Assembly: GCA_031373235.1 (NCBI GenBank)
Contig: JANMMK010000077.1
Span: 1 to 43,224 of the forward strand
Length of the DNA: 43,224 bases
Direction of reading: 5' to 3'
Source: a bacterium
GTDB lineage: Bacteria > Patescibacteriota > Minisyncoccia > Phycocordibacterales > CAIRYW01
Positions 13,598 through 43,224 of the stretch are shown here, one piece after another. Each line of letters starts with the position of its first letter. The stretch's first letter is position 1. Below the pieces are notes generated by a model that made no database searches, had not been told where the DNA came from, and saw only the letters and a list, made by a program, of their open reading frames with translations. Both the position numbers and the translations under genes were made by a program.

Positions 13598-13635
13598 TGT
13601 GGATAACTCATTTAGGCTAGGTTTAGCCTAGCCTA
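13598..13635 (+). repeat. Repeat R1: TGTGGATAA head plus 9-bp palindrome
   Basis: TGTGGATAActcatt-TAGGCTAGG-tttag-CCTAGCCTA. It overlaps the stop codon of the transposase gene. Confidence 0.8.
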
Positions 13636-14302
13636 AAATTTCACCAGAAAAGTTTATCCACTCTTTTATCATTAAGTTAAACTCGGCTGAATTTTTAAAA
13701 TATTCTGGAAAGTCTTCCTTACTCAAGATTAATTTCTCCACTCTCTCTTTCTCTTGGTAATCAAAAAAACTCGAAAAAGTATACCCCTCAAGAAACTTCT
13801 TCGCCTTATCCTTATCCTCAATTTTTTTCTGCTTCCAACCTTTATCAATAATTCCAATCGGATTAAGGTGAATATAGGTATATAGATACTTTAAGTACAT
13901 ATCCGTATCGACATGCTCAGCTTTAAATGTACCCTCGAACAAAGCGCCGGTTCTTTGATTTTTTTTATTAAAAAAACCAGTATAACCTGTTTGTAGTTTC
14001 TGCATAAACACTGAGATGCCTCCTGGGGTAATTTCTTTTACGAGTAAATGAAAGTGATTTGGCATAAGGCAATAAGCACCAATGGCAACAACAGGATCAC
14101 CTCTCTCGACTAAGGACTGAAAATCAAAAGACTTCGTCTTGCGGTTTCTCTTTTCTATATTGAAATGTTTTTTTGAATTTGAAAGTAACAAAGAGCTTAA
14201 AAATCTTTCATAATCATTTTGATCTAAAAACACAGTTCTCTTATCAACACCTCGATTATATATGTGATAAAATTCTCCTTCTGCAAATTTAATCTTTCGC
14301 AT
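13628..14302 (-). CDS. Y1 HUH transposase, IS200-like / REP-associated (RayT, COG1943-type)
   Basis: 224 aa. Motifs: FYHIYNRG, HUH motif CLMPNHFHLLV, and the catalytic Tyr region YTYIHLNPI. Confidence 0.8.
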   Translation of the reverse strand: MRKIKFAEGEFYHIYNRGVDKRTVFLDQNDYERFLSSLLLSNSKKHFNIEKRNRKTKSFDFQSLVERGDPVVAIGAYCLMPNHFHLLVKEITPGGISVFMQKLQTGYTGFFNKKNQRTGALFEGTFKAEHVDTDMYLKYLYTYIHLNPIGIIDKGWKQKKIEDKDKAKKFLEGYTFSSFFDYQEKERVEKLILSKEDFPEYFKNSAEFNLMIKEWINFSGEILG

Positions 14303-23722: not shown

Positions 23723-24103
23723 CTACTCCCCTAAAGACAACACCACCTTAACCCTTTTCCCGACTTTAGTCTGGAGAAAGCCTTCGGCTCCGTTCACGTA
23801 AGAAGGAGGAATGGCACCACCTTCACTTTGATAAATGCACCCTGTCGGACGAGGAGAAGTGGCTGACTCCGCCATTCTTGCTTCGATATCGAAGACCCAC
23901 CCAACTCCAGCGTGGTAAGTAACCCGTTTTGGCCGAAGCATTGATTCTCTGGCCTTTTTGTTTGCAGGTTTCCAATTACCGAATGTATTCTTGGGGTAGC
24001 GCGCCCAGCCCACATCCCCTGCTTTCGGATTTGAAGCCAAACACTCGAGACGATGGTTGGTAAACGCAACAATCTCACTTCTCTTAACCTGTACCGTATT
24101 CAT
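23723..24103 (-). CDS. Hypothetical cytoplasmic protein (GC-rich orphan)
   Basis: 126-aa ORF. A sample line is about 53% G+C, against AT-rich flanks. There is no signal peptide and no recognised motif. Confidence 0.45.
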   Translation of the reverse strand: MNTVQVKRSEIVAFTNHRLECLASNPKAGDVGWARYPKNTFGNWKPANKKARESMLRPKRVTYHAGVGWVFDIEARMAESATSPRPTGCIYQSEGGAIPPSYVNGAEGFLQTKVGKRVKVVLSLGE

Positions 24104-27434: not shown

Positions 27435-28877
27435 TTAGTCTTTTCTTAGAAAAAGAGGTTTTTCTGGGGCTTTGTTTTCTTTAATAAGATTTTTTATTTT
27501 ATCTGAGGTTTCAGGAAGAAAAGGTTGCAGCTTTTCTGCCACAACAAAAAGCATTCGGACAAAATCTGAAATTAACTTCTTACCTTTTTCATAATCTGTT
27601 TTAATCACTTTAAATGGTTGCTCTGTTTGAATGAGGTTATCTATACTCGCAACATAAGCCCATAAAATATTTAAAGCACCCTGTAGATTAAAAGAATCTA
27701 CTTCTTTTTCGTAATCAAAATTAGGATACACATCTTTAAAAGAAGTTACTGGTCCAGTAAGGTTCGTCTCTGCCATCTTCATAATTCTTGAAGTAAGGTT
27801 CCCGATACCGTTCGCAAGATTCGCATTGTAACTCTCCTTTAGTTTCTCTTTTGAAACAGCAGTATCTTCGAATGGATGAAATTCCCGTAAGACAAAATAC
27901 CGAAGTGCATCTGTGCCATACTCAGCTACCAGTTCAAGTGGATCAATTGTATTACCAAGTGACTTAGACATTTTCACTCCTCCGTCACCTAAAATAAATC
28001 CATTCACAACTATTTGCTTTGTATTTTGGTATCCAGCAGCCATGAGCATTGCTTGCCACATAACACCCTGAAATCTAGTGTTATCTTTACCACAATACTG
28101 GGTAGGAGTTCCGCTATTCCAATATTTTTCAATACCCTCTTCATCATCCAGCGTAGAAAGGTAGTCCGTAAGCGCATCAAACCACACATACATAACATGC
28201 CCTCCGTCACCCGGCACCTCTATTCCCCATGGCATTTTTGATTTTAATCTTGAAATAGAAAAGTCATGAAGTCCTCGCTTAATAAACTCTCGCATTTCAT
28301 TCATTCGAGAATTCGGAATTATAAAATCTGGATTCCCATCATAAAATTTCAAAAGTCTTTCTCCAAAACCACTAAACTTAAAAAAATAATTTTCTTCCTC
28401 GATGATTTCTGGTGCTTTTCTGTGTTCCGGACAAAGTCCTTCCACCAACTCTGAATCTGTTTTTTCTTCTTCGCAACCAACACAATATTTTGTTTTATAA
28501 TTTTTTTTATATATAAAACCATTCTGTAAACATTTGTTCCAGAAGTCTTTAGCAAATGCGATATGCTTTTCGTCTGTTGTTCTAATGAAGTGTATTCCTT
28601 CACCCTCTTTAAGCACTCCAAATTTCTCTAATGTTTCTTTATATAATCGGGCATACTCATCAACATACTCCTTAACTTCTACTCCAGCCTTTTGTGCTGA
28701 CTCAAGAATCTTTTTACCATGTTCATCCGTTCCTGTATTAAAAAACACATCGAAGCCTTGGAGTTTTTTTGCACGCGCAATAGCATCAGCTCTAATTATT
28801 TCTGTGGCATGACCCAAGTGAAGTGGTGCATTCACATACGGCAATGTCGTAGTAATGTAAAAAGGTTTCTGTGACAT
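27435..28877 (-). CDS. metG: Methionyl-tRNA synthetase, short form without a C-terminal tRNA-binding domain
   Basis: 480 aa. Motifs: HLGH (HIGH motif), the Zn knuckle CVGCEEE...CPEH, and KMSKSLGN. Confidence 0.93.
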   Translation of the reverse strand: MSQKPFYITTTLPYVNAPLHLGHATEIIRADAIARAKKLQGFDVFFNTGTDEHGKKILESAQKAGVEVKEYVDEYARLYKETLEKFGVLKEGEGIHFIRTTDEKHIAFAKDFWNKCLQNGFIYKKNYKTKYCVGCEEEKTDSELVEGLCPEHRKAPEIIEEENYFFKFSGFGERLLKFYDGNPDFIIPNSRMNEMREFIKRGLHDFSISRLKSKMPWGIEVPGDGGHVMYVWFDALTDYLSTLDDEEGIEKYWNSGTPTQYCGKDNTRFQGVMWQAMLMAAGYQNTKQIVVNGFILGDGGVKMSKSLGNTIDPLELVAEYGTDALRYFVLREFHPFEDTAVSKEKLKESYNANLANGIGNLTSRIMKMAETNLTGPVTSFKDVYPNFDYEKEVDSFNLQGALNILWAYVASIDNLIQTEQPFKVIKTDYEKGKKLISDFVRMLFVVAEKLQPFLPETSDKIKNLIKENKAPEKPLFLRKD

Positions 28878-33735: not shown

Positions 33736-35112
33736 TTATATCTTTGATTGAATAAAGTTTTTTAGATCTTCTATTTTTATTCTTTCTTGAGTTCCTGTAT
33801 CCCGGTCACGAACAGTCACCATGTTGTCTGTGAGGGTGTCGAAGTCAACTGTCGCACAAAATGGTGTACCGATCTCATCTTGTCTTCGATATCGTTTTCC
33901 TATGTTTCCATTGTCGTCATAGACAACATTTCCAAATTCTTTTTTAAGCATACTAAATACCTCACGGGCCTTTGTTTGAAGTTCTGGTTTGTTTTTTAGT
34001 AGAGGAGAAACACAAGCAATATATGGAGCAATACCTGCTGGAAATTTCAAATACACTCGAATATCATCCTCCATTTTTTCTTCACTATATGCAGAAACCA
34101 AAAGGGCTAAAATCGCACGATCAACACTAACTGTAGGCTCTAAAACATGTGGAAGATATTTTTCTTTTGTTTCCTCATCAAAAATCTCAAGTGATTTTTG
34201 AGAAAACTTCTGATGTTGAGAGAGGTCGTAGTTTCCTCTGTGAGCAAGACCGGTTAGTTCTTTCGTACCGAAAGGATACTCAAATTCTAGATCAACTGTT
34301 TTTTTGCTGTAATGAGCCCGAGCAGTATCTGGATGTGTCAGTGGATGAAGTTTTTTGGTGTCTACCCCAATACTTCCAAGCCATTTCTTTTGTTCTTCTA
34401 AAAACTGGTCGAACAACTCTTCCCAATTGGCAGAAGGATGAATAAAGTATTCAAATTCCATAATTTCAAACTCCCTCAAACGATAGGTAAAATCACGAGG
34501 AGTTATTTCATTTCTAAAAGCTTTTCCAATCTGGGCAATACCGAAAGGAATTTTTGGTGAAAGTGAGTCAAGAATATTCTTAAAATTTACAAACATACTC
34601 TGCGCCTCTTCTGGACGTAAATAGGTCGTAAGTGCAGTTTCTTCAACAGCACCCATTTTTGTTTCAAGCATAAGATTAAACTTTCTAACATCAGATAAAG
34701 GATTTCCCTCAGGACTCTTGAGTCCAAGTTCTTTTATTTTTGCATCCATTTCTGGTACCGTTAACTTTTCAGCATCGACACCAGCCTCTTCAAGTAAGTG
34801 GTCGGCACGATATCTTTTTTTAGTCTTTAAGTCATCAACAAGAGGATCAATAAATTCTGTTGTATGTCCTGATGCTTCCCACACTTTTGGATGCATGAGA
34901 ATTGGTGTATCAATAAGATACATATTATCTTTTGATGTTACAAAAAACTTAAGCCACGACTCTTCTATATTTCTCTTTAAAAGTGAACCGAGTGGCCCAT
35001 AATCCCATGTACCTGCAAGTCCACCATATATTTCTGATCCTTGATAAATAAACCCCCTTCGTTTACAGAGTGAAACTATCTTTTCCATTACATTATTTTC
35101 TTCTTTTGGCAT
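33736..35112 (-). CDS. glyQS: Glycyl-tRNA synthetase, single-chain (alpha2) type
   Basis: 458 aa. Motifs: RRGFIYQGSEIYGGLAGTWDYGPLG..LK.NI...W, FRNEITPR, and the class II motif 3 region. Confidence 0.93.
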   Translation of the reverse strand: MPKEENNVMEKIVSLCKRRGFIYQGSEIYGGLAGTWDYGPLGSLLKRNIEESWLKFFVTSKDNMYLIDTPILMHPKVWEASGHTTEFIDPLVDDLKTKKRYRADHLLEEAGVDAEKLTVPEMDAKIKELGLKSPEGNPLSDVRKFNLMLETKMGAVEETALTTYLRPEEAQSMFVNFKNILDSLSPKIPFGIAQIGKAFRNEITPRDFTYRLREFEIMEFEYFIHPSANWEELFDQFLEEQKKWLGSIGVDTKKLHPLTHPDTARAHYSKKTVDLEFEYPFGTKELTGLAHRGNYDLSQHQKFSQKSLEIFDEETKEKYLPHVLEPTVSVDRAILALLVSAYSEEKMEDDIRVYLKFPAGIAPYIACVSPLLKNKPELQTKAREVFSMLKKEFGNVVYDDNGNIGKRYRRQDEIGTPFCATVDFDTLTDNMVTVRDRDTGTQERIKIEDLKNFIQSKI

Positions 35113-37082: not shown

Positions 37083-37649
37083 TTATGTTTGTTTTCGAAG
37101 TTGTGACGAAGCGAGTGCATTATTTATGAGTGAAATAATCTTTTTTTTGTTTTTAGTGCTTGAGGTTTCAGAAAAAGGCCTGATTAGAAGTTCAAAATCT
37201 TCGTCATCACTTCCATACCCAAGAGCATGCAGGACGTTTACTACAGACCAGAGCTCGAAGTCTTCTTCTGAGAGTGAAGCTGGATTTTCTAGAAAGAAAC
37301 TTTCCACTACCTTAAAGAGTTCCGTATTTTTTTCTTGTCCTTGAACCAATTCAGCCAGGAGTAAACAAGTTTTGGCTAAGTTTTGTTCTTTAATTTTTTC
37401 TAAACGAAGAGAAAGACACTCTGCATCCGTAAGGCGCCAAACATCCTTTCCTTTTATAAGGGTAACCACCAGCATCCTAAAAATCTTTAAGGAAGGTTTG
37501 AGTTTTGACTTCAAGAGTCTCACCCCCTTAGCAATAACAAAGACAAGTCCAAACTCTTCAGTATAAAGAGTAAATAACTTATCGGCTTCGCCGAAATTCT
37601 TTTCTTTTATGATGACAGCTTGTGTCCGATATTTTTCGTAGGATGACAT
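37083..37649 (-). CDS. recO: DNA repair protein RecO (short form)
   Basis: 188 aa. N-terminal OB-fold pattern: T.AVIIKEKNFGEADKLFTLYTEEFGLV.VIAKGVR..KSKL. The gene neighbours glyQS, as in many Gram-positive bacteria. Confidence 0.7.
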   Translation of the reverse strand: MSSYEKYRTQAVIIKEKNFGEADKLFTLYTEEFGLVFVIAKGVRLLKSKLKPSLKIFRMLVVTLIKGKDVWRLTDAECLSLRLEKIKEQNLAKTCLLLAELVQGQEKNTELFKVVESFFLENPASLSEEDFELWSVVNVLHALGYGSDDEDFELLIRPFSETSSTKNKKKIISLINNALASSQLRKQT

Positions 37650-37730: not shown

Positions 37731-37910
37731 GATGAAACGACAACCATTCGTGACCTTCGTCGTCATCGGATTCCATGCTGGATTCCGTATGCTCCGAGCC
37801 GAAGGTCGGCTCTTTTGGGATGGTCCCTTTGGACCAACCCTGCTCGGGTAGCCCCGGGCAACTTCACAAATGCGCAGTCTGGTCACCACCTTACTGCGCA
37901 TTTCGTTTTT
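37731..37910 (+). ncRNA. Candidate structured sRNA of unknown family (about 180 nt)
   Basis: A sample line is about 63% G+C. There are five consecutive hairpins: 37731-37767, 37796-37812, 37817-37840, 37842-37859, and an 11-bp terminator stem at 37868-37903 followed by CGTTTTTT. One U.G pair exists only on the plus strand. The ORFs here look spurious. Confidence 0.45.
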
Positions 37911-40900
37911 TATATCTTCTCTACAACAACCCCCACCTCCCCTTCTTCAAAAGAGACTGCATCCGCTTGGGCTACTTTTGTTATAAGACTTTTCCACTCT
38001 GTTTTTTCAAACAAGTTACGCGATTGATCACCGTAAACTTTTACTTTTATTCTGTCTTTCGGAGTAAGATTTTTTTCTTTTCTTTGTTCTTGGACTTCAC
38101 GGATAACATCACGCACAACACCTTCTTCTTTAAGCTCAAGAGTTAATACCGTGTCGAGCAATACTTCTTCTACTAAAGTAGCGTCACAAAAAACTTCTTT
38201 TACATTGAGCTCGTCTTTTATTATCTCAAGGTATTCACTCTTAAGATCTTGCTTGATAGTAAGTTTTTGAAGTGGTTGCCTTACTTTTATATTAACTTTT
38301 TGTCTTTGTTCGAGTCCTAAAGAAACAATCTTTCTTACCTCTTTCATTTCTTTAATAATCTCTTCACTATTAACTCTCAACTCTTCACCACTGACTACTT
38401 CAGGCCATCCTTCTAAATGAACACTCTCTTCATCATTTTGTATTCTAAGTTTCTGGAAAAGATGTTCTGCAAAGAATGGAGCAAATGGAGCCATATACTT
38501 ACTTAAAGTTTTAAGAACAAAATACAATGTTTTCTTTGCATCTACATCTTCCTCTTTCAGTCTTTCCCTTGATCTTCTGACGTACCAAGTTGATAAGTCA
38601 TCGACAAATTCTTTAAGTAATCGCACTGGTTCAAAAAGTTTAAACTCATCAAGATACTTTGTTCCAGAAGAAAGCATTTCATTGAGGCGAGACAAGATCC
38701 ATATATCTAAAACATTTTCTGATGTCGGCATGTCATTACTTTCAAGTGAAATATCTCGGTAGAGATCATAGAAACTGTGCACATTAGAAACAAGATTAAA
38801 TATCTTCTTCACTATTTCATCAACAGTTTTTTCATCAAAGTTTTTACTCTCTCCTGGTTGATTCACGCTGTACATCCATAGACGAAGTGCATCTACTCCA
38901 TATTTATCAATCATCTCCCAAGGGTTCACAATATTTCCAAGACTCTTACTCATCTTCTTTCCTTCTTTATCAAGAATGTGTCCGAGACAAATTACATTTT
39001 TATACGCTCTCCCCTTGCCCATAAGTACACCTACTGCATGAAGTGTATAAAACCATCCACGAGTTTGGTCTATCGCTTCACTAATAAAGTCAGCAGGAAA
39101 AGCAACTTCCTTGGTAGAGAAAGGATAATTATCTTGTGCAAAAGGCATCGCTCCCGAATCAAACCACACGTCCATTACTTCTTTTGTTCGCTTGAGTATA
39201 CTGCCGTTTTCACCAACCAGTTCGACGGTGTCTATGTATGGTCGATGTAAATCGAGCCGATACTCTTCATCGTGAGGAAGTGGTGCAAAGACTAATTCTT
39301 TGTAATGTCCTGGTTCGATAAAATTTACTCCTGGTGTATAGATTTTTTCTATTTCACTATCGAGTGCCCCTTCAGCCACACACTTCATAAGCTTTGCAGG
39401 TCCATCATGTGTCACCATCAAAATATTTTTACCTTCATACTTGCTTTCGGTTTCGTAGAGAAACTCGCCCACTCTTCTTTTTACTTCCATTAAGGTTTCA
39501 GCGCTATCAAATTTCTTAAAAATACGATCCTTAAATGTTGGATATATTTTTTCAAACTCACTCCATGGTTTTCCGGAGAGCACTCCAAACCGCTCTTCGT
39601 GAAGACGGTCATCGACAACTGCTTCCACACCAAGCACTTCAGAGGCAATACTTGCTGTTTCTGCTGTCCTTAAAATTGGAGAATGGATAATGAGATCAAT
39701 ATTTTCTTTTTTTAGTAGCCCTGCATTTTCTCTGACTAGTGCCCTACCCTTTTCTGTAAGCGGATGAACAGCTTCTTCGTCACTACTTAAAACTCCAGCC
39801 ACATTATGACTCGCTTCTCCATGTCGCATCAAAAAATATTTGTTGCCAGATTTTTTGGTTTTTTCTTTGAGAGTTTTTATTGAATCAAGAATGAATCTTT
39901 CTTTACCGTCAGCACTTTCCCATACCGGAAGTGGTGTCCCCCAATATCGCTCCCTTGAAATCGCCCAGTCTTTCACTTCTTTAAGCCACTCACCAAATCG
40001 TCCATCTTTAATATAAGACGGCTCCCAATTTATTTTCTGGTTTTCTTCCATGAGAGAATCCCTGAGACTAGACATTTTTATATACCAAGAATCTCTCGCA
40101 TAATAGATAAGTGGAGTTTTACACCGCCAACAATGTGGATATGAGTGTTCGTATTTTTCTTTCTTAAAGAGCAGTCCTCTGTGTGCAAGGTCTTTGATGA
40201 CATCAATAGCAACGGCTTCATCTTTTACAAATCGTCCAGAAAACTCTCCACACCATTCTTTAAAAGTTCCATCCTCATTTACCGTGTGCATTTTTGGAAG
40301 TCCGACTTTTGTCCCAAGCGCAAAGTCATCTTGTCCATACATAACAGCGGTGTGCACGATTCCTGTTCCATCTGTTGTAGTAACAAAGTCAGCTCCATAT
40401 ACTCTAAAGGCTTTTGAAGCATCAATTCCTTTTTTCTCTAATTCATTTTTAAGAAATGGATAAAGTGGTTCATATTCTAAACCAACCAAGTCTTTTCCCT
40501 TAACCTCTTTGTAAGTAAAAGCCACCGAATGTTCGGCCTGCTCGTCACCTTGATCATGAGGAAGTATATGTTTAAGCATTTCCTCCATTCTTGATTTCGC
40601 AAAAATCAAAGTCTCTTTTTCGAATTTTACTTTCACATACTCAATCTCAGTCCCTACAGCCAGTGCAACATTCCCCGGTAAAGTCCACGGGGTTGTAGTC
40701 CATGCAAGAAAATAAGTCGGTAAGTCGTCAGTTGGTAAGTTAGTAAGTTTAAACTTCGCGTACACCGACAAATCTTTTACATCTTGATATCCTTGTGCGA
40801 GTTCGTGAGAAGAAAGTCCTGTCCCGCATCTTGGACACCATGGCACCACCTTGTAGTCCTTATATAGTAAATTTTTGTCTGCAACTGTCTTCACGATATT

Positions 40901-41386
40901 CCAGAGAGACTCGATGTAAGAATTGTGAAAAGTAAAATATGCATTTTCTTGATCAACCCAATATCCGATTCTTTTTGTAAATCTTCCCCAATCTTCAAGA
41001 TAGGTAAATACACTTTCTTTACACTTTTTGTTAAACTCAGCAACACCAAACTTTTCGATGTCTTTCTTTGAGGTAAGTTTGAGTTCTTTTTCTACTTGAA
41101 GCTCCACTGGAAGTCCATGCGTATCCCATCCACCTTTTCTTCTGACATGAAATCCTTGCATGGTTTTGAAACGAGGAATAGCGTCCTTAAATGCTCTTGC
41201 TTCAAGATGGTGAATTCCTGGCTTTCCATTTGCTGTTGGAGGACCTTCAAAAAACACAAACTCACCTTTTGGCGAATCTTTTTTGAGTGTTTCTGCAAAA
41301 ATATTCTTTTCCTCCCAAAACTTCAAGACCTCTTCTTCACGAAGTGCATGTGGGCTTTTTTCTGAATTTTTTTCTTGTTCTACCAT
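37910..41386 (-). CDS. ileS: Isoleucyl-tRNA synthetase (type 2) with an inserted histidine-phosphatase domain
   Basis: 1158 aa. IleRS motifs: PPTANGKPGIHH, the WCPRCGT editing/CP1 region, WGTPLPVW, DLHRPYID, VWFDSG and KMSKSLGN. The insertion of about 220 aa spans residues W489 to D712. Confidence 0.95.
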   Translation of the reverse strand: MVEQEKNSEKSPHALREEEVLKFWEEKNIFAETLKKDSPKGEFVFFEGPPTANGKPGIHHLEARAFKDAIPRFKTMQGFHVRRKGGWDTHGLPVELQVEKELKLTSKKDIEKFGVAEFNKKCKESVFTYLEDWGRFTKRIGYWVDQENAYFTFHNSYIESLWNIVKTVADKNLLYKDYKVVPWCPRCGTGLSSHELAQGYQDVKDLSVYAKFKLTNLPTDDLPTYFLAWTTTPWTLPGNVALAVGTEIEYVKVKFEKETLIFAKSRMEEMLKHILPHDQGDEQAEHSVAFTYKEVKGKDLVGLEYEPLYPFLKNELEKKGIDASKAFRVYGADFVTTTDGTGIVHTAVMYGQDDFALGTKVGLPKMHTVNEDGTFKEWCGEFSGRFVKDEAVAIDVIKDLAHRGLLFKKEKYEHSYPHCWRCKTPLIYYARDSWYIKMSSLRDSLMEENQKINWEPSYIKDGRFGEWLKEVKDWAISRERYWGTPLPVWESADGKERFILDSIKTLKEKTKKSGNKYFLMRHGEASHNVAGVLSSDEEAVHPLTEKGRALVRENAGLLKKENIDLIIHSPILRTAETASIASEVLGVEAVVDDRLHEERFGVLSGKPWSEFEKIYPTFKDRIFKKFDSAETLMEVKRRVGEFLYETESKYEGKNILMVTHDGPAKLMKCVAEGALDSEIEKIYTPGVNFIEPGHYKELVFAPLPHDEEYRLDLHRPYIDTVELVGENGSILKRTKEVMDVWFDSGAMPFAQDNYPFSTKEVAFPADFISEAIDQTRGWFYTLHAVGVLMGKGRAYKNVICLGHILDKEGKKMSKSLGNIVNPWEMIDKYGVDALRLWMYSVNQPGESKNFDEKTVDEIVKKIFNLVSNVHSFYDLYRDISLESNDMPTSENVLDIWILSRLNEMLSSGTKYLDEFKLFEPVRLLKEFVDDLSTWYVRRSRERLKEEDVDAKKTLYFVLKTLSKYMAPFAPFFAEHLFQKLRIQNDEESVHLEGWPEVVSGEELRVNSEEIIKEMKEVRKIVSLGLEQRQKVNIKVRQPLQKLTIKQDLKSEYLEIIKDELNVKEVFCDATLVEEVLLDTVLTLELKEEGVVRDVIREVQEQRKEKNLTPKDRIKVKVYGDQSRNLFEKTEWKSLITKVAQADAVSFEEGEVGVVVEKI

Positions 41387-41487
41387 AGATAAATAGATAC
41401 TAGCATTTTTTCGGAAATGGATAAATGTTCTTCCTTGCTTTCCTTTGCTTATACGGTAGAGTTAATTTTTGAAACATCTCCATACTT

Positions 41488-41835
41488 ATGCCTCATATCT
41501 CTCTCGAGTTCCTTGATACTAATGGGAACCAACACCCTTACGGAAATCTTATTCTACTTGCAAAAGACCTCATTTCTGCAGTAGAAGGAATAACTGAACT
41601 TAACATCGACAAAGACGCTGTGTCCTGTTCTCAAATCCAATCAACTTCACTCACCCCAACAAATAGGATAATTGCAAAAGTGTCCTGTCTATTGGCAAAA
41701 AAAGGTCGTGATGACTCAACCGTCGCTAAAGTTGCTAAAGTCGTAGCCGAAACGATAAAGAAGTACTTTCCAAAGTTTACTATTGAAGTGGTTGTTGAAC
41801 CCTTAGTTCCCATGTCCTACATTATCACTCTCTAA
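41488..41835 (+). CDS. Hypothetical protein (possible tautomerase-superfamily member, Pro-1)
   Basis: 115 aa that begins MPHISLEF. The size and the N-terminal Pro are reminiscent of MIF/tautomerase folds, which is a weak inference only. Confidence 0.35.
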   Translation: MPHISLEFLDTNGNQHPYGNLILLAKDLISAVEGITELNIDKDAVSCSQIQSTSLTPTNRIIAKVSCLLAKKGRDDSTVAKVAKVVAETIKKYFPKFTIEVVVEPLVPMSYIITL

Positions 41836-41891
41836 CGCCAGGCTTGTCCTCGGCGATTTTTATTTACCTACCAATATTGACTTTTTATATA
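41830..41891 (+). repeat. Terminator-promoter cassette, copy A
   Basis: The 32-mer CTCTAACGCCAGGCTTGTCCTCGGCGATTTTT is a bulged 7-bp hairpin plus T run. After a variable spacer comes the 16-mer ATTGACTTTTTATATA, which holds the -35 box TTGACT. A -10 box TATAAA follows 16 nt later. Confidence 0.8.
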
Positions 41892-41913
41892 GATATGATA
41901 TAAATTTTTTTGA

Positions 41914-42639
41914 ATGAACACGTCACACAACCAAATGTGGGTAACGAGTGGAACTCGTTTACCTTTAACCGCAGTGAGGAATGCTGCATCACTACTAACA
42001 ATCCTGCTCTTCGTACTCACAACGATAAGCTACGGACAATACACCGGCTTCTCCTACTCCACCGGCCCCGACCGTTGGAGCTATATCGCTCAGGGTTCAG
42101 GACTAGAGCTGCCAGAAAACGGCACTCAATTCTTTGCGCCCTATACGCGATACCCGGCCAGCCAAAACTACTCAAACAGCCTGGAGTTGAGCATCTACAC
42201 CCCCGCCGGACCAATCATCCCACCATTTCAGTTTCCCACTCCCGACAGTGACTGGAACATCAACCTCCATGCACCAAACAATGGGTTACTTGAAGAAGGG
42301 GTCTTCATCGCAACGAGATACCCATTTAACAGCCCTGATGTTATGGGGTTCACATGGTATGGAAACGGAAGAGGGCTAAACATCTCCACATCTTGGGTTG
42401 AGATATTGGAAGTCGAATACATCGGTGTTGGAGGACCACCAAGCAAACTAGCCTTTGACTTCGTGCAGTTTGAGGAAATCTCCCCTGCACAAAACCCAAC
42501 ACTTGAAACATCAAGATGGTCATTTGGCTCCTACCGGTACAACTCGAGCGTACCACTGAATGTTGTGCCGGAACCAAGCACCTCCATACTTGGGATGCTG
42601 GGAATGCTCCTTATAGCAAGACGAAAACGTCAAAGCTAA
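41914..42639 (+). CDS. Exported protein with a C-terminal PEP-CTERM sorting signal (GC-rich)
   Basis: 241 aa. Signal peptide: ...AASLLTILLFVLTTISYGQ. C-terminus: VVPEP-STSILGMLGMLLIA-RRKRQS. A sample line is about 58% G+C. Confidence 0.75.
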   Translation: MNTSHNQMWVTSGTRLPLTAVRNAASLLTILLFVLTTISYGQYTGFSYSTGPDRWSYIAQGSGLELPENGTQFFAPYTRYPASQNYSNSLELSIYTPAGPIIPPFQFPTPDSDWNINLHAPNNGLLEEGVFIATRYPFNSPDVMGFTWYGNGRGLNISTSWVEILEVEYIGVGGPPSKLAFDFVQFEEISPAQNPTLETSRWSFGSYRYNSSVPLNVVPEPSTSILGMLGMLLIARRKRQS

Positions 42640-42649
42640 TAACTACCAA

Positions 42650-42711
42650 CTCTAACGCCAGGCTTGTCCTCGGCGATTTTTTATATTTAAGCACTATTGA
42701 CTTTTTATATA
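42650..42711 (+). repeat. Terminator-promoter cassette, copy B
   Basis: The 32-mer and 16-mer are identical to copy A and occur in the same order. The -10 box TAATAT lies 16 nt after TTGACT. Confidence 0.8.
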
Positions 42712-42782
42712 TTTATGTTAATATAGTAAAAAATACCCTCAGAAATCACAGAAACTCAACCAAGTCAAAAACTACCGAAATC

Positions 42783-43224
42783 ATGAAAACAATCATCTCG
42801 CTCTTTACAGCGATCATCATCACCGCAGTCCTTTCGGGCTGCACAGGATCAGTCGACGGACGCATCACTGCATCCATCGGCTCAAACCGCCAAGGCAACC
42901 ACGGAGGTGGACCAGTTTACAACGGGCTCCCCACCCCAACCATCCAGAGTCTCCGCTCCAGTGGCAGAGACGCCTCAGGAGTTGCCCGTTGGGCAATGGA
43001 GAACGGATATCGGCTCCAGGAGTCGAACGTTGTCAGGGAAGCCCGTCACTGTGGACCCTCTTGCGCGGTAACGCGAAAGAGTGTCCTTCAGAGGACTTGG
43101 GTTCGAACGACCCCTGTCCCTATGGCAACGCCCCCGCAATATCTTCGGGCGCCAAGTCCGGCGGACCAACTCTACCAGAGGCCAATCGGGGTAGACTGCT
43201 ATAGTCCGATCTACCCGCCACAGT
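42783..43224 (+). CDS. Putative lipoprotein, 3'-truncated by the window end (GC-rich)
   Basis: My own translation is open from the ATG at 42783 to the window end: MKTIISLFTAIIITAVLSGC|TGSVDG..., with lipobox LSGC. It is absent from the ORF track because no stop codon is reached. Confidence 0.55.
   Translation, partial: MKTIISLFTAIIITAVLSGCTGSVDGRITASIGSNRQGNHGGGPVYNGLPTPTIQSLRSSGRDASGVARWAMENGYRLQESNVVREARHCGPSCAVTRKSVLQRTWVRTTPVPMATPPQYLRAPSPADQLYQRPIGVDCYSPIYPPQ

What the first reader, a model, noticed from the sequence alone, without database searches (positions are those of the whole stretch)
39254..39919. Histidine-phosphatase (PGM-like) domain inserted inside isoleucyl-tRNA synthetase
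The IleRS is colinear with type-2 IleRS. From my memory of the E. coli and human enzymes, only a few tens of residues normally separate WGTPLPVW (W489) from DLHRPYID (D712). Here that gap holds about 220 aa. The insert carries the full motif set of branch-1 histidine phosphatases. These are FLMRHGEASHN (RHG, His522), SPILRTAETA (phosphate-binding Arg), LHEERFG (Glu region) and ILMVTHDG (second catalytic His660, a PhoE/cofactor-independent-like spacing). The reading frame is continuous and the motifs are intact, so the domain looks functional rather than decayed. I do not know of any described aminoacyl-tRNA synthetase with an embedded phosphatase. Possible roles are pure speculation: removal of tRNA 3'-end or 2',3'-cyclic phosphates, hydrolysis of phosphorylated by-products or alarmones, or hydrolysis of a phosphorylated antibiotic mimic.
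Basis: partly seen in the sequence, partly recalled or inferred. Interest (0 to 1): 0.8.

Follow-up and report, generated by a model that had tools for sequence, protein, structure and literature searches.

The report
Phosphatase domain nested inside isoleucyl-tRNA synthetase
The gene for the enzyme that loads isoleucine onto tRNA carries a complete, apparently active phosphatase domain spliced into its catalytic core; this is a real and undescribed but lineage-wide feature of Patescibacteria (CPR bacteria), and relatives that lack the insert keep the same phosphatase as a separate gene right next to the synthetase gene.

Summary
Window 37910-41386 (-) encodes a 1158-aa type-2 IleRS. About 196 residues (aa 509-704, nt 39275-39862) are a full branch-1 histidine-phosphatase (HP) domain (PF00300, E=3e-30), nested in the CP3 subdomain. 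The domain folds confidently on its own (pLDDT 94). Its closest structures are small phosphatases (PspA, HFP, PhoE, CobC), not mutases.

The catalytic Arg-His...Arg...Glu...His set is invariant in 121 homologues, while the domain surface varies freely. It is neither a chimera nor a singleton:
- All 120 best database homologues carry the insert, and so do at least 80 GTDB species (Paceibacteria/Parcubacteria).
- Some relatives have 2-4 HP copies, or HP at other sites in IleRS.

New here: in 6 of 6 free-standing relatives examined, the HP gene lies next to an insert-less ileS, usually 1-9 bp upstream in an argS-HP-ileS-recO order. Loci with the nested form keep argS-ileS-recO and have no free HP.

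The best reading is a bifunctional IleRS/phosphatase whose phosphatase works alongside IleRS. The substrate is unknown. Pyrophosphate clearance is the most interesting untested candidate. I found no paper describing this, and databases call it "class I tRNA ligase family protein". It is a new variant of a known kind.

The parts
37910..41386 (-). ileS: type-2 isoleucyl-tRNA synthetase with nested phosphatase, 1158 aa plus stop
   Evidence: ORF. TIGR00392 scores 873.7 bits against a cut-off of 621.4. The full-length AF2 model has pLDDT 87.8 and pTM 0.78. The best Foldseek and PDB match is P. megaterium IleRS2 8c8w, TMt 0.78.
41207..41218 (-). Class I signature motif in its non-canonical GXHH form (G57-I58-H59-H60)
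   Evidence: Codons checked. The best PDB hit is the engineered GVHH mutant 8c8w. GXHH is linked to mupirocin hyper-resistance in IleRS2 (PMC10485003).
39938..41386 (-). First Rossmann half, CP core, CP1 editing domain, CP2 and the CP2-CP3 linker (aa 1-483, ending in VKDWAISRERYWG)
   Evidence: Pfam PF00133 stretch 20-516. The WTTTPWT editing motif and H345/D354 are invariant. The linker is homologous to yeast 453-ARDWNVSRNRYWG-465, which lines the tRNA-CCA/reveromycin pocket (PMC7955072).
39863..39937 (-). N-terminal part of the native CP3 subdomain (aa 484-508): beta-hairpin and short helix
   Evidence: DSSP of the model gives E488-491, E497-499 and H503-509. CP3 is defined in C. albicans IleRS as residues 473-534 (PMC7191050), and query 510 corresponds to about Ca 499. 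In 40/121 homologues this hairpin carries a CxxC.
39275..39862 (-). Nested histidine-phosphatase (branch 1) domain, aa 509-704, including the conserved linkers TKKSGN and PLP
   Evidence: PF00300 E=3.4e-30. The insert boundaries come from the 8c8w alignment. The stand-alone AF2 model has pLDDT 94.1 and pTM 0.91. Foldseek top hits are PspA 4ij5/4ij6, HFP 9mmh, PhoE 1h2e and CobC 6nru. The domain is colinear end to end with the free-standing 189-196-aa relatives.
39818..39826 (-). RHG motif: R521, nucleophile H522, G523
   Evidence: Invariant in 121 homologues. R and H are present in all aligned embedded and free copies (125/125 and 50/50, gaps excluded). Aligned to the catalytic His of PspA and HFP.
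39668..39670 (-). R573, second phosphate-binding arginine (SPxxRTxET motif)
   Evidence: Invariant.
39596..39598 (-). E597, predicted general acid
   Evidence: 98% conserved in the 121 homologues. E or D in 125/127 embedded copies.
39407..39409 (-). H660, second active-site histidine (VTHxGP motif)
   Evidence: Invariant. 127/127 embedded copies.
38717..39274 (-). C-terminal part of CP3, second Rossmann half with KMSKS (38942-38956) and the stem-contact fold (aa 705-890)
   Evidence: 8c8w alignment of query 705-1107 to chain 480-886. KMSKS codons checked. LDLHRPYID was the pattern that retrieved at least 578 GTDB relatives.
37913..38716 (-). Anticodon-binding domain and type-2 C-terminal domain (PF08264, PF19302/DUF5915), aa 891-1158
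   Evidence: Pfam.
37083..37649 (-). recO-like gene downstream of ileS. It is part of the conserved ileS-recO-DUF11-class II aaRS order that is shared with loci where HP is a separate gene
   Evidence: Pfam RecO_N. The same order is seen in L081, L083, L085 and L090.

Best explanation
The segment is a complete, catalytically competent branch-1 histidine phosphatase. It is of the small PhoE/PspA/CobC-like phosphatase type, not a mutase. It is nested inside the CP3 subdomain of a type-2 (GXHH) IleRS, between the two hairpins that form a zinc knuckle in many relatives. The protein is therefore bifunctional.

Shown:
- domain identity and fold;
- the insertion point;
- invariance of the catalytic residues against a variable surface;
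- lineage-wide distribution in Paceibacteria/Parcubacteria;
- the existence of the same phosphatase as a free gene abutting an insert-less ileS in sister lineages;
- extra copies and extra insertion sites within IleRS in some relatives.

Inferred:
- The domain hydrolyses a phosphate ester or anhydride through a phospho-His522 intermediate. R521, R573 and H660 bind the phosphate and E597 protonates the leaving group.
- It does so as a partner of IleRS, either co-translated or covalently tethered next to the synthetic site. It is not an unrelated passenger.

My best guess for the job is removal of a small phosphorylated product or inhibitor of the adenylation step, with pyrophosphate as the leading candidate. 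This last step is speculation.

Approximate probabilities: real nested HP domain 0.97; active phosphatase 0.8; functionally tied to IleRS 0.55; substrate is PPi 0.2. The overall confidence given (0.55) refers to the claim 'active phosphatase that works as a partner of IleRS'.
For: Identity and fold:
- PF00300 E=3.4e-30.
- The AF2 model of the insert alone has pLDDT 94.1. In the full-length model the insert scores pLDDT 85-97.
- Foldseek matches PspA, HFP, PhoE and CobC at TM about 0.75.

Site:
- The 8c8w alignment places the insert between chain residues 476 and 480.
- This lies within CP3 as defined in PMC7191050.
- 40/121 homologues have CxxC before the insert and CxC/CxxC after it.

Selection:
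- R521, H522, R573 and H660 are invariant and E597 is 98% conserved. Mean column conservation of the insert is only 0.55, against about 0.8 for the synthetase core.
- Every copy in the 2- to 4-copy relatives keeps the catalytic set.

Spread:
- All 120 best homologues (57-97% identical) carry PF00133 plus PF00300.
- 92 of the top 145 50%-identity cluster representatives are IleRS-embedded.
- The best 80 GTDB species loci all span the insert. Taxa include Adler-, Nomura-, Taylor-, Zambryski- and Colwellbacteria.

Coupling to IleRS:
- 6/6 free-standing relatives (36-45% identical, colinear with the whole insert) are adjacent to an insert-less ileS. Five are co-oriented upstream with 1-119 bp gaps, and argS lies further upstream wherever the contig reaches that far.
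- About 50 of the 80 nested loci keep argS directly upstream of ileS, and none has a free HP gene.
- HP occurs at two further sites in the IleRS catalytic body and as tandem copies.
- The linkers are highly conserved: K511 0.93, S513 0.99, G514 0.97, N515 1.0, P704 0.95, H705 0.99.

PPi idea:
- Close HP relatives are also fused to TsaC/Sua5 (4 clusters, Patescibacteria) and to ATP sulfurylase. Like IleRS, both make an adenylate plus PPi and are strongly PPi-inhibited (PMC6004061).
- The substrate-cap region aa 598-629 is poorly conserved. That fits a substrate recognised mainly through its phosphates.
Against: - No enzymology exists, and no substrate can be read from the sequence.
- All specific NCBIfam phosphatase and mutase models score far below their cut-offs.
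- Gene fusion is promiscuous in Patescibacteria. TsaC is fused to MGMT, TruB, 2H phosphoesterase, Nudix, GNAT and a DNA glycosylase as well as to HP. IleRS relatives also carry GNAT and an IS200-like domain. Fusion alone is therefore weak evidence of mechanistic coupling.
- MetRS and a class II aaRS in the same window have no HP. A PPi-clearing role would not explain why only IleRS is decorated.
- Branch-1 HPs are not known to me as pyrophosphatases (own knowledge).
- The ATP-sulfurylase-fused copy has Gln in place of the acid Glu.
- Whether these genomes lack a conventional pyrophosphatase could not be tested.
Confidence: 0.55

Rival explanations
1. Passenger enzyme. The HP is an ordinary housekeeping small-molecule phosphatase (for example of phospho-amino acids, sugar phosphates or vitamin intermediates). 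Its chemistry has nothing to do with aminoacylation. It sat next to ileS by chance and became nested through the fusion-prone, compacting genome dynamics of CPR bacteria. Nesting only guarantees co-expression.
For: - The closest solved relatives are metabolite phosphatases: PspA phosphoserine phosphatase, the riboflavin-pathway HFP 9mmh, PhoE, CobC and GpgP.
- Patescibacterial TsaC is fused to many functionally unrelated domains.
- IleRS relatives also host GNAT and IS200-like domains.
- The insert's surface and cap evolve fast.
- Other aaRSs in the window lack the insert.
Against: - A simple read-through fusion of an upstream gene would give an N-terminal fusion. None was seen among 92 embedded representatives.
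- Instead, HP recurs at three internal sites, all in or next to the catalytic body, and in 2-4 copies.
- Free and nested states are mutually exclusive in otherwise conserved synteny.
- The linkers are as conserved as the catalytic residues.
Confidence: 0.3
2. RNA-end phosphatase. The HP removes a 2'- or 3'-terminal phosphate from tRNA(Ile), for example after nuclease damage or cyclic-phosphate opening. This would make the acceptor end chargeable again, directly at the enzyme that uses it.
For: - The insert follows, by about 25 residues, the CP2-CP3 linker that lines the tRNA CCA pocket.
- HP relatives are fused to TsaC, a tRNA-modification enzyme. TsaC in the same phylum is also fused to 2H cyclic phosphodiesterase domains.
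- NCBIfam lists a bifunctional RNase H/acid phosphatase among the better hits, at 80 bits.
Against: - I know of no branch-1 HP with RNA-end phosphatase activity (own knowledge).
- The cap region that would have to recognise a nucleotide is poorly conserved.
- No basic RNA-binding surface has been demonstrated.
- There is no reason why only tRNA(Ile) would need this.
Confidence: 0.12
3. Protein phosphatase or regulatory module. The HP dephosphorylates IleRS itself or a partner, for example to reverse an inactivating phosphorylation by a kinase toxin.
For: - The HP superfamily includes protein phosphatases (SixA, PGAM5, Sts; own knowledge).
- SixA appears among the weak NCBIfam hits, at 33.6 bits.
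- Several copies per polypeptide exist.
Against: - The SixA score is far below its cut-off of 74.5.
- The nearest structures are small-molecule phosphatases.
- No kinase gene is linked in any of the loci examined.
Confidence: 0.05
4. Non-catalytic spacer or artefact. The segment is a structural insertion, a decaying relic, an intein-like mobile element or an assembly chimera.
For: CPR proteins often carry lineage-specific insertions (own knowledge). The insert's average conservation is lower than that of the synthetase core.
Against: - The catalytic residues are invariant in 121 homologues and in all extra copies.
- The same architecture appears in hundreds of independent assemblies from NCBI, JGI, ENA and Logan.
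- GC and GC3 match the host gene.
- Pfam finds no Hint/intein domain, and there is no Cys/Ser/Thr after the C-terminal junction.
Confidence: 0.03

Closest known systems
Type-2 (eukaryote-like) bacterial IleRS, e.g. Priestia megaterium IleRS2 (PDB 8c8u-8c9d) and Thermus thermophilus IleRS (1ILE)
   Same: - Colinear over the whole length apart from the insert (E=1.7e-234; Foldseek TMt 0.78-0.89).
- KMSKS is present, the CP1 editing motifs are intact, and the DUF5915 C-terminal domain is present.
- Carries the natural GXHH signature variant described for hyper-resistant IleRS2.
   Different: - About 196 extra residues form an independent enzyme domain inside CP3.
- In T. thermophilus-like enzymes CP3 is a small zinc-binding subdomain. 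Here, and in 81/121 close homologues, the zinc cysteines are lost.
Small branch-1 histidine phosphatases: PspA phosphoserine phosphatase (4ij5), HFP of riboflavin biosynthesis (9mmh), PhoE (1h2e), CobC (6nru)
   Same: - Same size (about 190-210 aa) and fold (TM about 0.75, probability 1.0).
- Same RHG...R...E...H catalytic set and the same DxRLxE and GGES motifs.
   Different: - Only 23-28% identity.
- It scores well below every curated equivalog cut-off, so the substrate cannot be transferred.
- This clade has an invariant N-x-Y just before strand 1.
- It occurs nested in, or adjacent to, ileS.
NCBIfam NF040702 'isoleucine--tRNA ligase, N-acetyltransferase domain-containing' (ileS_w_GNAT)
   Same: It is a curated precedent for an IleRS that carries an extra, unrelated enzyme domain. 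One HP-bearing relative (P0269) also has a GNAT domain.
   Different: The passenger domain differs (GNAT, not HP). The window protein scores 326.7 bits against a cut-off of 1999. No curated model exists for the HP-bearing form.
CP1 editing domain of class Ia synthetases
   Same: It is a hydrolytic domain nested as a 'connective peptide' in the Rossmann fold of the same enzyme. This shows that the architecture tolerates, and can exploit, inserted catalytic modules.
   Different: CP1 is universal, ancient and acts on aminoacyl esters. The HP is confined to one bacterial radiation, sits in CP3, and uses phosphoryl-transfer chemistry.
Bifunctional RNase H/acid phosphatase (Rv2228c type, NF005567)
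   Same: A CobC/PhoE-like HP domain is fused to an enzyme of nucleic-acid metabolism. It is among the better NCBIfam hits for the insert, at 80 bits.
   Different: It is an end-to-end fusion, not a nested domain. The score is far below the cut-off of 326, and the partner enzyme is different.

Membership tests
Histidine phosphatase superfamily, branch 1 (PF00300) | Profile match above the curated threshold | tested here: met
   105.6 bits against a cut-off of 21.7, E=3.4e-30, profile positions 2-169 of 194.
Histidine phosphatase superfamily, branch 1 (PF00300) | RHG motif with the nucleophilic His, plus a second Arg, a second His and an acidic proton donor | tested here: met
   R521-H522-G523, R573, H660 and E597 are present. 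They are invariant or 98% conserved in 121 homologues and align to the catalytic residues of 9mmh and 4ij5.
Histidine phosphatase superfamily, branch 1 (PF00300) | Alpha/beta dPGM-like fold | tested here: met
   The AF2 model has pLDDT 94.1. Foldseek gives probability 1.0 and TM 0.73-0.77 to PspA, HFP, PhoE, CobC and GpgP.
Histidine phosphatase superfamily, branch 1 (PF00300) | Phosphoryl-transfer activity through a phospho-histidine intermediate | not testable with these tools
   This needs enzymology.
Cofactor-dependent phosphoglycerate mutase (TIGR01258 / NF038349 dPGM_arch) | Score above the curated equivalog or subfamily cut-off | tested here: not met
   TIGR01258 gives 17.5 bits against 81.7. 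dPGM_arch gives 92.4 bits against 225 and covers only profile positions 3-143. The positions after E597 and after H660 are variable or GGP-like, not the ERHYG / HGNSLR pattern I recall for E. coli dPGM (plus own knowledge).
Specific small HP phosphatases (PspA NF045917, CobC TIGR03162, SixA TIGR00249) | Score above the curated cut-off | tested here: not met
   PspA 64.3 against 350; CobC 69.4 against 162.9; SixA 33.6 against 74.5.
Isoleucyl-tRNA synthetase (TIGR00392), type 2 | Equivalog score, class I signature motifs, CP1 editing motif, type-2 C-terminal domain | tested here: met
   873.7 bits against 621.4. GIHH (the GXHH variant) and KMSKS are present. WTTTPWT is invariant. PF19302 is present. 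The best structures are IleRS2 8c8w and 1ILE.
Acquired mupirocin-resistance IleRS (MupA NF000257 / MupB NF000258) | Score above the exception-model cut-off | tested here: not met
   About 761-764 bits against a cut-off of 1900.
ileS_w_GNAT (NF040702) | Score above the cut-off; GNAT domain present | tested here: not met
   326.7 bits against 1999, and no acetyltransferase Pfam hit.
Intein / mobile protein-splicing element | Hint domain; Cys/Ser/Thr at the N-junction; His-Asn followed by Cys/Ser/Thr at the C-junction | tested here: not met
   There is no Hint-type Pfam hit on the full protein. The junctions read ...KEK|TKKSGN... and ...PLPHD|EEY..., with no nucleophile after the C-junction.

The most novel reading that the evidence does not exclude
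This histidine-phosphatase clade may be a dedicated, tethered product-clearing enzyme for adenylate-forming enzymes in Patescibacteria. The most likely version is an unconventional inorganic pyrophosphatase that pulls the reversible Ile + ATP -> Ile-AMP + PPi step. The same clade is also fused to TsaC/Sua5 and ATP sulfurylase, two notoriously PPi-limited adenylate formers. It may substitute for, or supplement, a canonical pyrophosphatase in these minimal cells. If so, it would be a new catalytic activity for branch-1 histidine phosphatases and a new kind of built-in thermodynamic 'pull' in an aminoacyl-tRNA synthetase.
Probability: 0.18. Interest if true: 0.85.

Novelty: new variant of a known kind. 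Interest (0 to 1): 0.62.

Why it matters
Aminoacyl-tRNA synthetases are among the most studied enzymes. Apart from their editing domains, inserted catalytic domains are very rare in bacterial synthetases.

Here a second, apparently active enzyme sits inside the catalytic core of an essential synthetase across a large part of the Candidate Phyla Radiation. Copy number and insertion site vary, and a free-gene version stays glued to ileS. That pattern points to an unrecognised accessory activity in isoleucine charging, or at least to obligate co-production with IleRS, in organisms with minimal genomes.

Practical points:
- Databases name these proteins generically ("class I tRNA ligase family protein", or even "histidine phosphatase family protein, partial").
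- The embedded domain could be mis-scored as a phosphoglycerate mutase-type enzyme in metabolic reconstructions of CPR genomes.
- The natural split/nested pairs give a ready-made experimental system: free HP plus insert-less IleRS against the nested form.

Tried and rejected
- **Assembly chimera:** rejected. The same architecture occurs in all 120 best homologues from independent sources and in at least 80 GTDB species.
- **Recent horizontal insertion:** rejected. GC and GC3 equal those of the host gene.
- **Intein:** rejected. There is no Hint domain and no splice-junction residues.
- **Phosphoglycerate mutase, PspA, CobC or SixA membership:** all are below their curated cut-offs.
- **Direction of evolution (free to nested, or the reverse):** unresolved. 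NJ trees of the HP domains and of IleRS with HP removed interleave free and nested forms. L081 and L083 fall inside the nested FATG-type clade, while L085 and L090 form a separate deep clade. The trees have no support values and long branches, so I only conclude that there was probably more than one transition.
- **3D geometry of the HP active site relative to the synthetic and editing sites:** not possible.
- **Co-occurrence with canonical pyrophosphatase genes:** not testable. Only about 4-10 kb flanks could be fetched, and two papers mentioning PPase in CPR gave no usable statement.
- **Literature:** ten searches and targeted reads of IleRS evolution papers found no description of a phosphatase in any synthetase.
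- **RNA leader or T-box upstream of ileS:** no Rfam match in 41300-43224.
- **Length filter:** the first protein search, with the 262-aa segment, returned only fragments up to 457 aa, seemingly because of a length filter. The full-length query was needed to see the complete proteins.
Full report
**1. Observation**

The minus-strand ORF 37910-41386 encodes a 1158-aa protein with no interruption.
- Pfam finds the class I synthetase catalytic domain (PF00133) split into two stretches. It also finds the anticodon-binding domain, the type-2 C-terminal domain PF19302 and, between the two PF00133 stretches, PF00300 (His_Phos_1) at aa 518-682. That hit has E=3.4e-30 and 105.6 bits against a gathering score of 21.7.
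- NCBIfam calls the protein ileS (TIGR00392, 873.7 bits against 621.4).
- Against solved structures the best match is the type-2 IleRS of Priestia megaterium (8c8w, E=1.7e-234). Query 14-508 aligns to chain 11-476 and query 705-1107 to chain 480-886, so about 196 residues replace three.
The insert proper is aa 509-704, nt 39275-39862.
- All motif residues sit at the stated codons. GC and GC3 of the insert are the same as in the rest of the gene.

**2. What the insert is**

- Predicted with an alignment of 57 homologues, the 204-aa segment folds on its own with pLDDT 94.1 and pTM 0.91.
- In the full-length model (pLDDT 87.8, pTM 0.78) the same residues score 85-97.
- Foldseek places it among small branch-1 histidine phosphatases of about 200 aa, at TM about 0.75 and probability 1.0. 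These are PspA phosphoserine phosphatase (4ij5/4ij6), the riboflavin-pathway HFP (9mmh), PhoE (1h2e), CobC (6nru, 6e4b) and GpgP (4qih). True mutases follow.
- Sequence search of the PDB gives the same set. It aligns the RHG histidine and the second histidine with their catalytic counterparts.
- No curated phosphatase or mutase model reaches its cut-off: dPGM_arch 92 against 225, CobC 69 against 163, PspA 64 against 350, SixA 34 against 75, pgm_1 17.5 against 81.7.

It is therefore a member of the superfamily, but of no characterised specificity.

**3. Where it sits**

- The insertion point falls in the CP3 subdomain. CP3 is residues 473-534 in C. albicans IleRS (PMC7191050), and query 510 aligns to about Ca 499.
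- CP3 follows the CP2-CP3 linker, which here reads VKDWAISRERYWG. In yeast IleRS the homologous ARDWNVSRNRYWG forms part of the tRNA-CCA/reveromycin pocket (PMC7955072).
- In the model the order is beta-hairpin 488-499, helix 503-509, the phosphatase, then strand 695-698.
- In 40 of 121 close homologues a CxxC precedes the insert and a CxC/CxxC follows it. The phosphatase is thus nested between the two halves of the CP3 zinc knuckle known from T. thermophilus IleRS. The window protein has lost these cysteines.

**4. Is it functional?**

- Across the window protein and 120 homologues (57-97% identical overall), the insert is the most variable part of the catalytic half. Its mean top-residue frequency is 0.55, against about 0.8 for the synthetase core.
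- Even so, R521, H522, R573 and H660 are invariant. G523, N528 and E597 are at least 98% conserved. S569, T577, G547, E630 and R638 are invariant or nearly so.
- The linkers are as conserved as the active site: K511, S513, G514, N515, Y517 on one side and F700, P704, H705 on the other.
- The cap region 598-629, which usually shapes specificity in this fold, is poorly conserved.

This is the signature of an active enzyme domain held in a defined position. Its substrate is probably recognised mainly through the phosphate.

**5. Distribution**

- All 120 best hits in a 5.8-billion-protein collection carry PF00133 plus PF00300. They are named only 'class I tRNA ligase family protein' (Patescibacteria, Paceibacterota) or 'isoleucyl-tRNA synthetase'. 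Fragments are even named 'histidine phosphatase family protein, partial'.
- An exhaustive phmmer search of 1.84 billion cluster representatives with the insert found 928 hits at E<=1e-10. Of the top 145, 92 are IleRS-embedded and 48 are free proteins of about 190 aa.
- A scan of one genome per GTDB species found at least 578 relatives through the flanking LDLHRPYID motif. The best 80 all span the insert. Labels include Adler-, Nomura-, Taylor-, Zambryski-, Colwellbacteria and Paceibacterota.
- The insert occurs in both deep IleRS2 lineages present in these organisms, the GXHH type (as here) and the FATGxPHYGH type.

So it is neither a chimera nor a singleton. It is old and lineage-wide.

**6. 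Variants**

- Some relatives carry tandem HP-HP at CP3 (P0236, P0311, P0317).
- Some carry a second HP at another site, between the stem-contact fold and the anticodon-binding domain (after window aa about 879: P0200, P0210, P0249, P0262).
- One carries a second HP at about aa 766, just before the DQTRGW strand (P0209).
- One fragment has four HP domains (P0182).
- Every copy keeps the catalytic residues.
- One relative (P0269) also has an IS200-like Y1 transposase domain inside CP1 and a GNAT domain. NCBIfam already curates an 'ileS_w_GNAT' family.

**7. The key new evidence: synteny**

I looked up six free-standing relatives (36-45% identical to the insert).
- They are colinear with the insert from the N-x-Y just before strand 1 to the last strand.
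- In all six the gene is adjacent to an ileS that lacks the insert (931-984 aa).
- Five are immediately upstream on the same strand, with gaps of 1-9 bp in four and 119 bp in one. One is convergent.
- argS lies further upstream wherever the contig reaches that far. In the four loci with enough downstream sequence, recO (and in three a DUF11-like gene) lies downstream, as in the window.
- Conversely, in about 50 of the 80 nested loci argS lies directly upstream of ileS. In none of them is there a free HP gene within 4 kb.

The phosphatase is thus tied to ileS in two mutually exclusive forms, neighbour gene or nested domain.
- A plain read-through fusion would give an N-terminal fusion, and none was seen.
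- NJ trees suggest more than one free/nested transition, but they are not robust.

**8. Mechanism**

Shown: a bifunctional polypeptide with an intact IleRS (signature motifs, editing motifs, anticodon and C-terminal domains) and an intact phosphatase core.

Inferred from the family's established chemistry: His522 attacks a terminal phosphoryl group held by R521, R573 and H660. E597 protonates the leaving group, and the phospho-enzyme is then hydrolysed.

That it acts as a partner of IleRS is inferred from four things:
- the synteny;
- the repeated insertion into the catalytic body;
- the copy-number expansion;
- the conserved linkers.

The substrate is unknown.

One lead: close relatives of this HP clade are also fused to TsaC/Sua5 (four clusters, Patescibacteria). 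They are also fused to ATP sulfurylase next to a sulfotransferase.
- IleRS, TsaC and ATP sulfurylase all form an adenylate and release PPi.
- TC-AMP synthesis is energetically unfavourable, reversed by nanomolar PPi and strongly stimulated by pyrophosphatase (PMC6004061).
- A tethered PPi-clearing activity would fit.

Strong caveats apply:
- Patescibacterial TsaC is fused to many unrelated domains: MGMT, TruB, 2H phosphoesterase, Nudix, GNAT and a glycosylase.
- MetRS and a class II synthetase in the same window have no HP.
- I know of no branch-1 HP that is a pyrophosphatase.

I rate the steps as follows: active phosphatase 0.8; functionally tied to IleRS 0.55; PPi as substrate about 0.2. Rivals are an unrelated housekeeping phosphatase riding on IleRS (0.3), a tRNA-end phosphatase (0.12), a protein phosphatase (0.05), and a non-catalytic insert or artefact (0.03).

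**9. Comparison with what is known, and novelty**

- The host is an ordinary type-2 IleRS of the GXHH kind. That motif is linked to mupirocin hyper-resistance (PMC10485003).
- The guest is an ordinary small histidine phosphatase.
- The combination is what is unusual: a phosphatase nested in CP3 of a synthetase, with its split-gene counterpart.
- I could not find it in ten full-text searches, nor in two papers on IleRS evolution. No curated family model covers it.
- The closest precedents are the universal CP1 editing domain and the curated GNAT-bearing IleRS.

I class it as a new variant of a known kind. It is moderately to highly interesting to synthetase and CPR specialists. It is directly testable with recombinant protein and the natural split/nested pairs.

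Noticed in passing
window 41207-41218 (-), aa 57-60: The class I HIGH signature is the swapped GXHH form (GIHH). This form confers mupirocin hyper-resistance in IleRS2 (PMC10485003). The whole 'PGIHH' clade of HP-bearing IleRS shares it.
   Followed up: partly
relatives P0200, P0210, P0249, P0262, P0209, P0236, P0311, P0317, P0182 (not in the window): IleRS relatives carry 2-4 histidine-phosphatase domains. Some are tandem at CP3. Others sit at two additional sites, after window-equivalent aa about 879 and about 766. All copies are catalytically intact.
   Followed up: partly
relative P0269 (1066-aa fragment): This IleRS carries, besides HP at CP3, an in-frame IS200-like Y1 transposase domain inside the CP1 editing region and a GNAT acetyltransferase domain. 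NCBIfam curates a separate 'ileS_w_GNAT' family.
   Followed up: no
P0247, P0328-P0330 and other hits; L088: In Patescibacteria the TsaC/YrdC (TC-AMP synthase) domain is fused to a striking variety of partners. These are this HP clade (4 clusters), MGMT (PF01035, the commonest), TruB, 2H/cyclic phosphodiesterase, Nudix, GNAT and methylpurine glycosylase.
   Followed up: partly
L087 8001-9707 and neighbours: An HP-PUA_2-ATP sulfurylase fusion (P0309, with Gln at the acid-Glu position) lies directly upstream of a sulfotransferase, in a glycosyltransferase/Asn-synthase-like cluster. No APS kinase is visible within 8 kb.
   Followed up: no
window 41830-41900 and 42650-42720; ORF 41914-42639 (+); 42750-43224: A 71-nt direct repeat (83% identical) consists of a hairpin plus T-run followed by a TTGACT promoter-like box. 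It flanks a 241-aa ORF with a PEP-CTERM sorting signal (PF07589, 22 bits). From about 42000 to the window end, GC rises from about 0.38 to 0.5-0.6, and a lipoprotein-like ORF starts at 42784. This may be a foreign island or a contig-end join.
   Followed up: partly
window 39863-39937 and 39190-39274 (-): The CP3 zinc-knuckle cysteines (CxxC ... CxC/CxxC) that bracket the insert in 40/121 homologues are absent from the window protein.
   Followed up: yes
window 13628-14302 (-): A 224-aa ORF has a weak IS200-like Y1 transposase match (PF01797, 28 bits).
   Followed up: no
window 23797-23881 (-): ARAGORN calls a tRNA-Thr(CGT) of 85 nt with the anticodon at position 31. That is unusually long for tRNA-Thr, and it overlaps a 126-aa ORF at 23723-24103.
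   Followed up: no
window 27435-28877 (-) and 33736-35112 (-): MetRS (480 aa) and a class II synthetase (458 aa, tRNA-synt_2b plus HGTP_anticodon) in the same window carry no phosphatase domain.
   Followed up: yes
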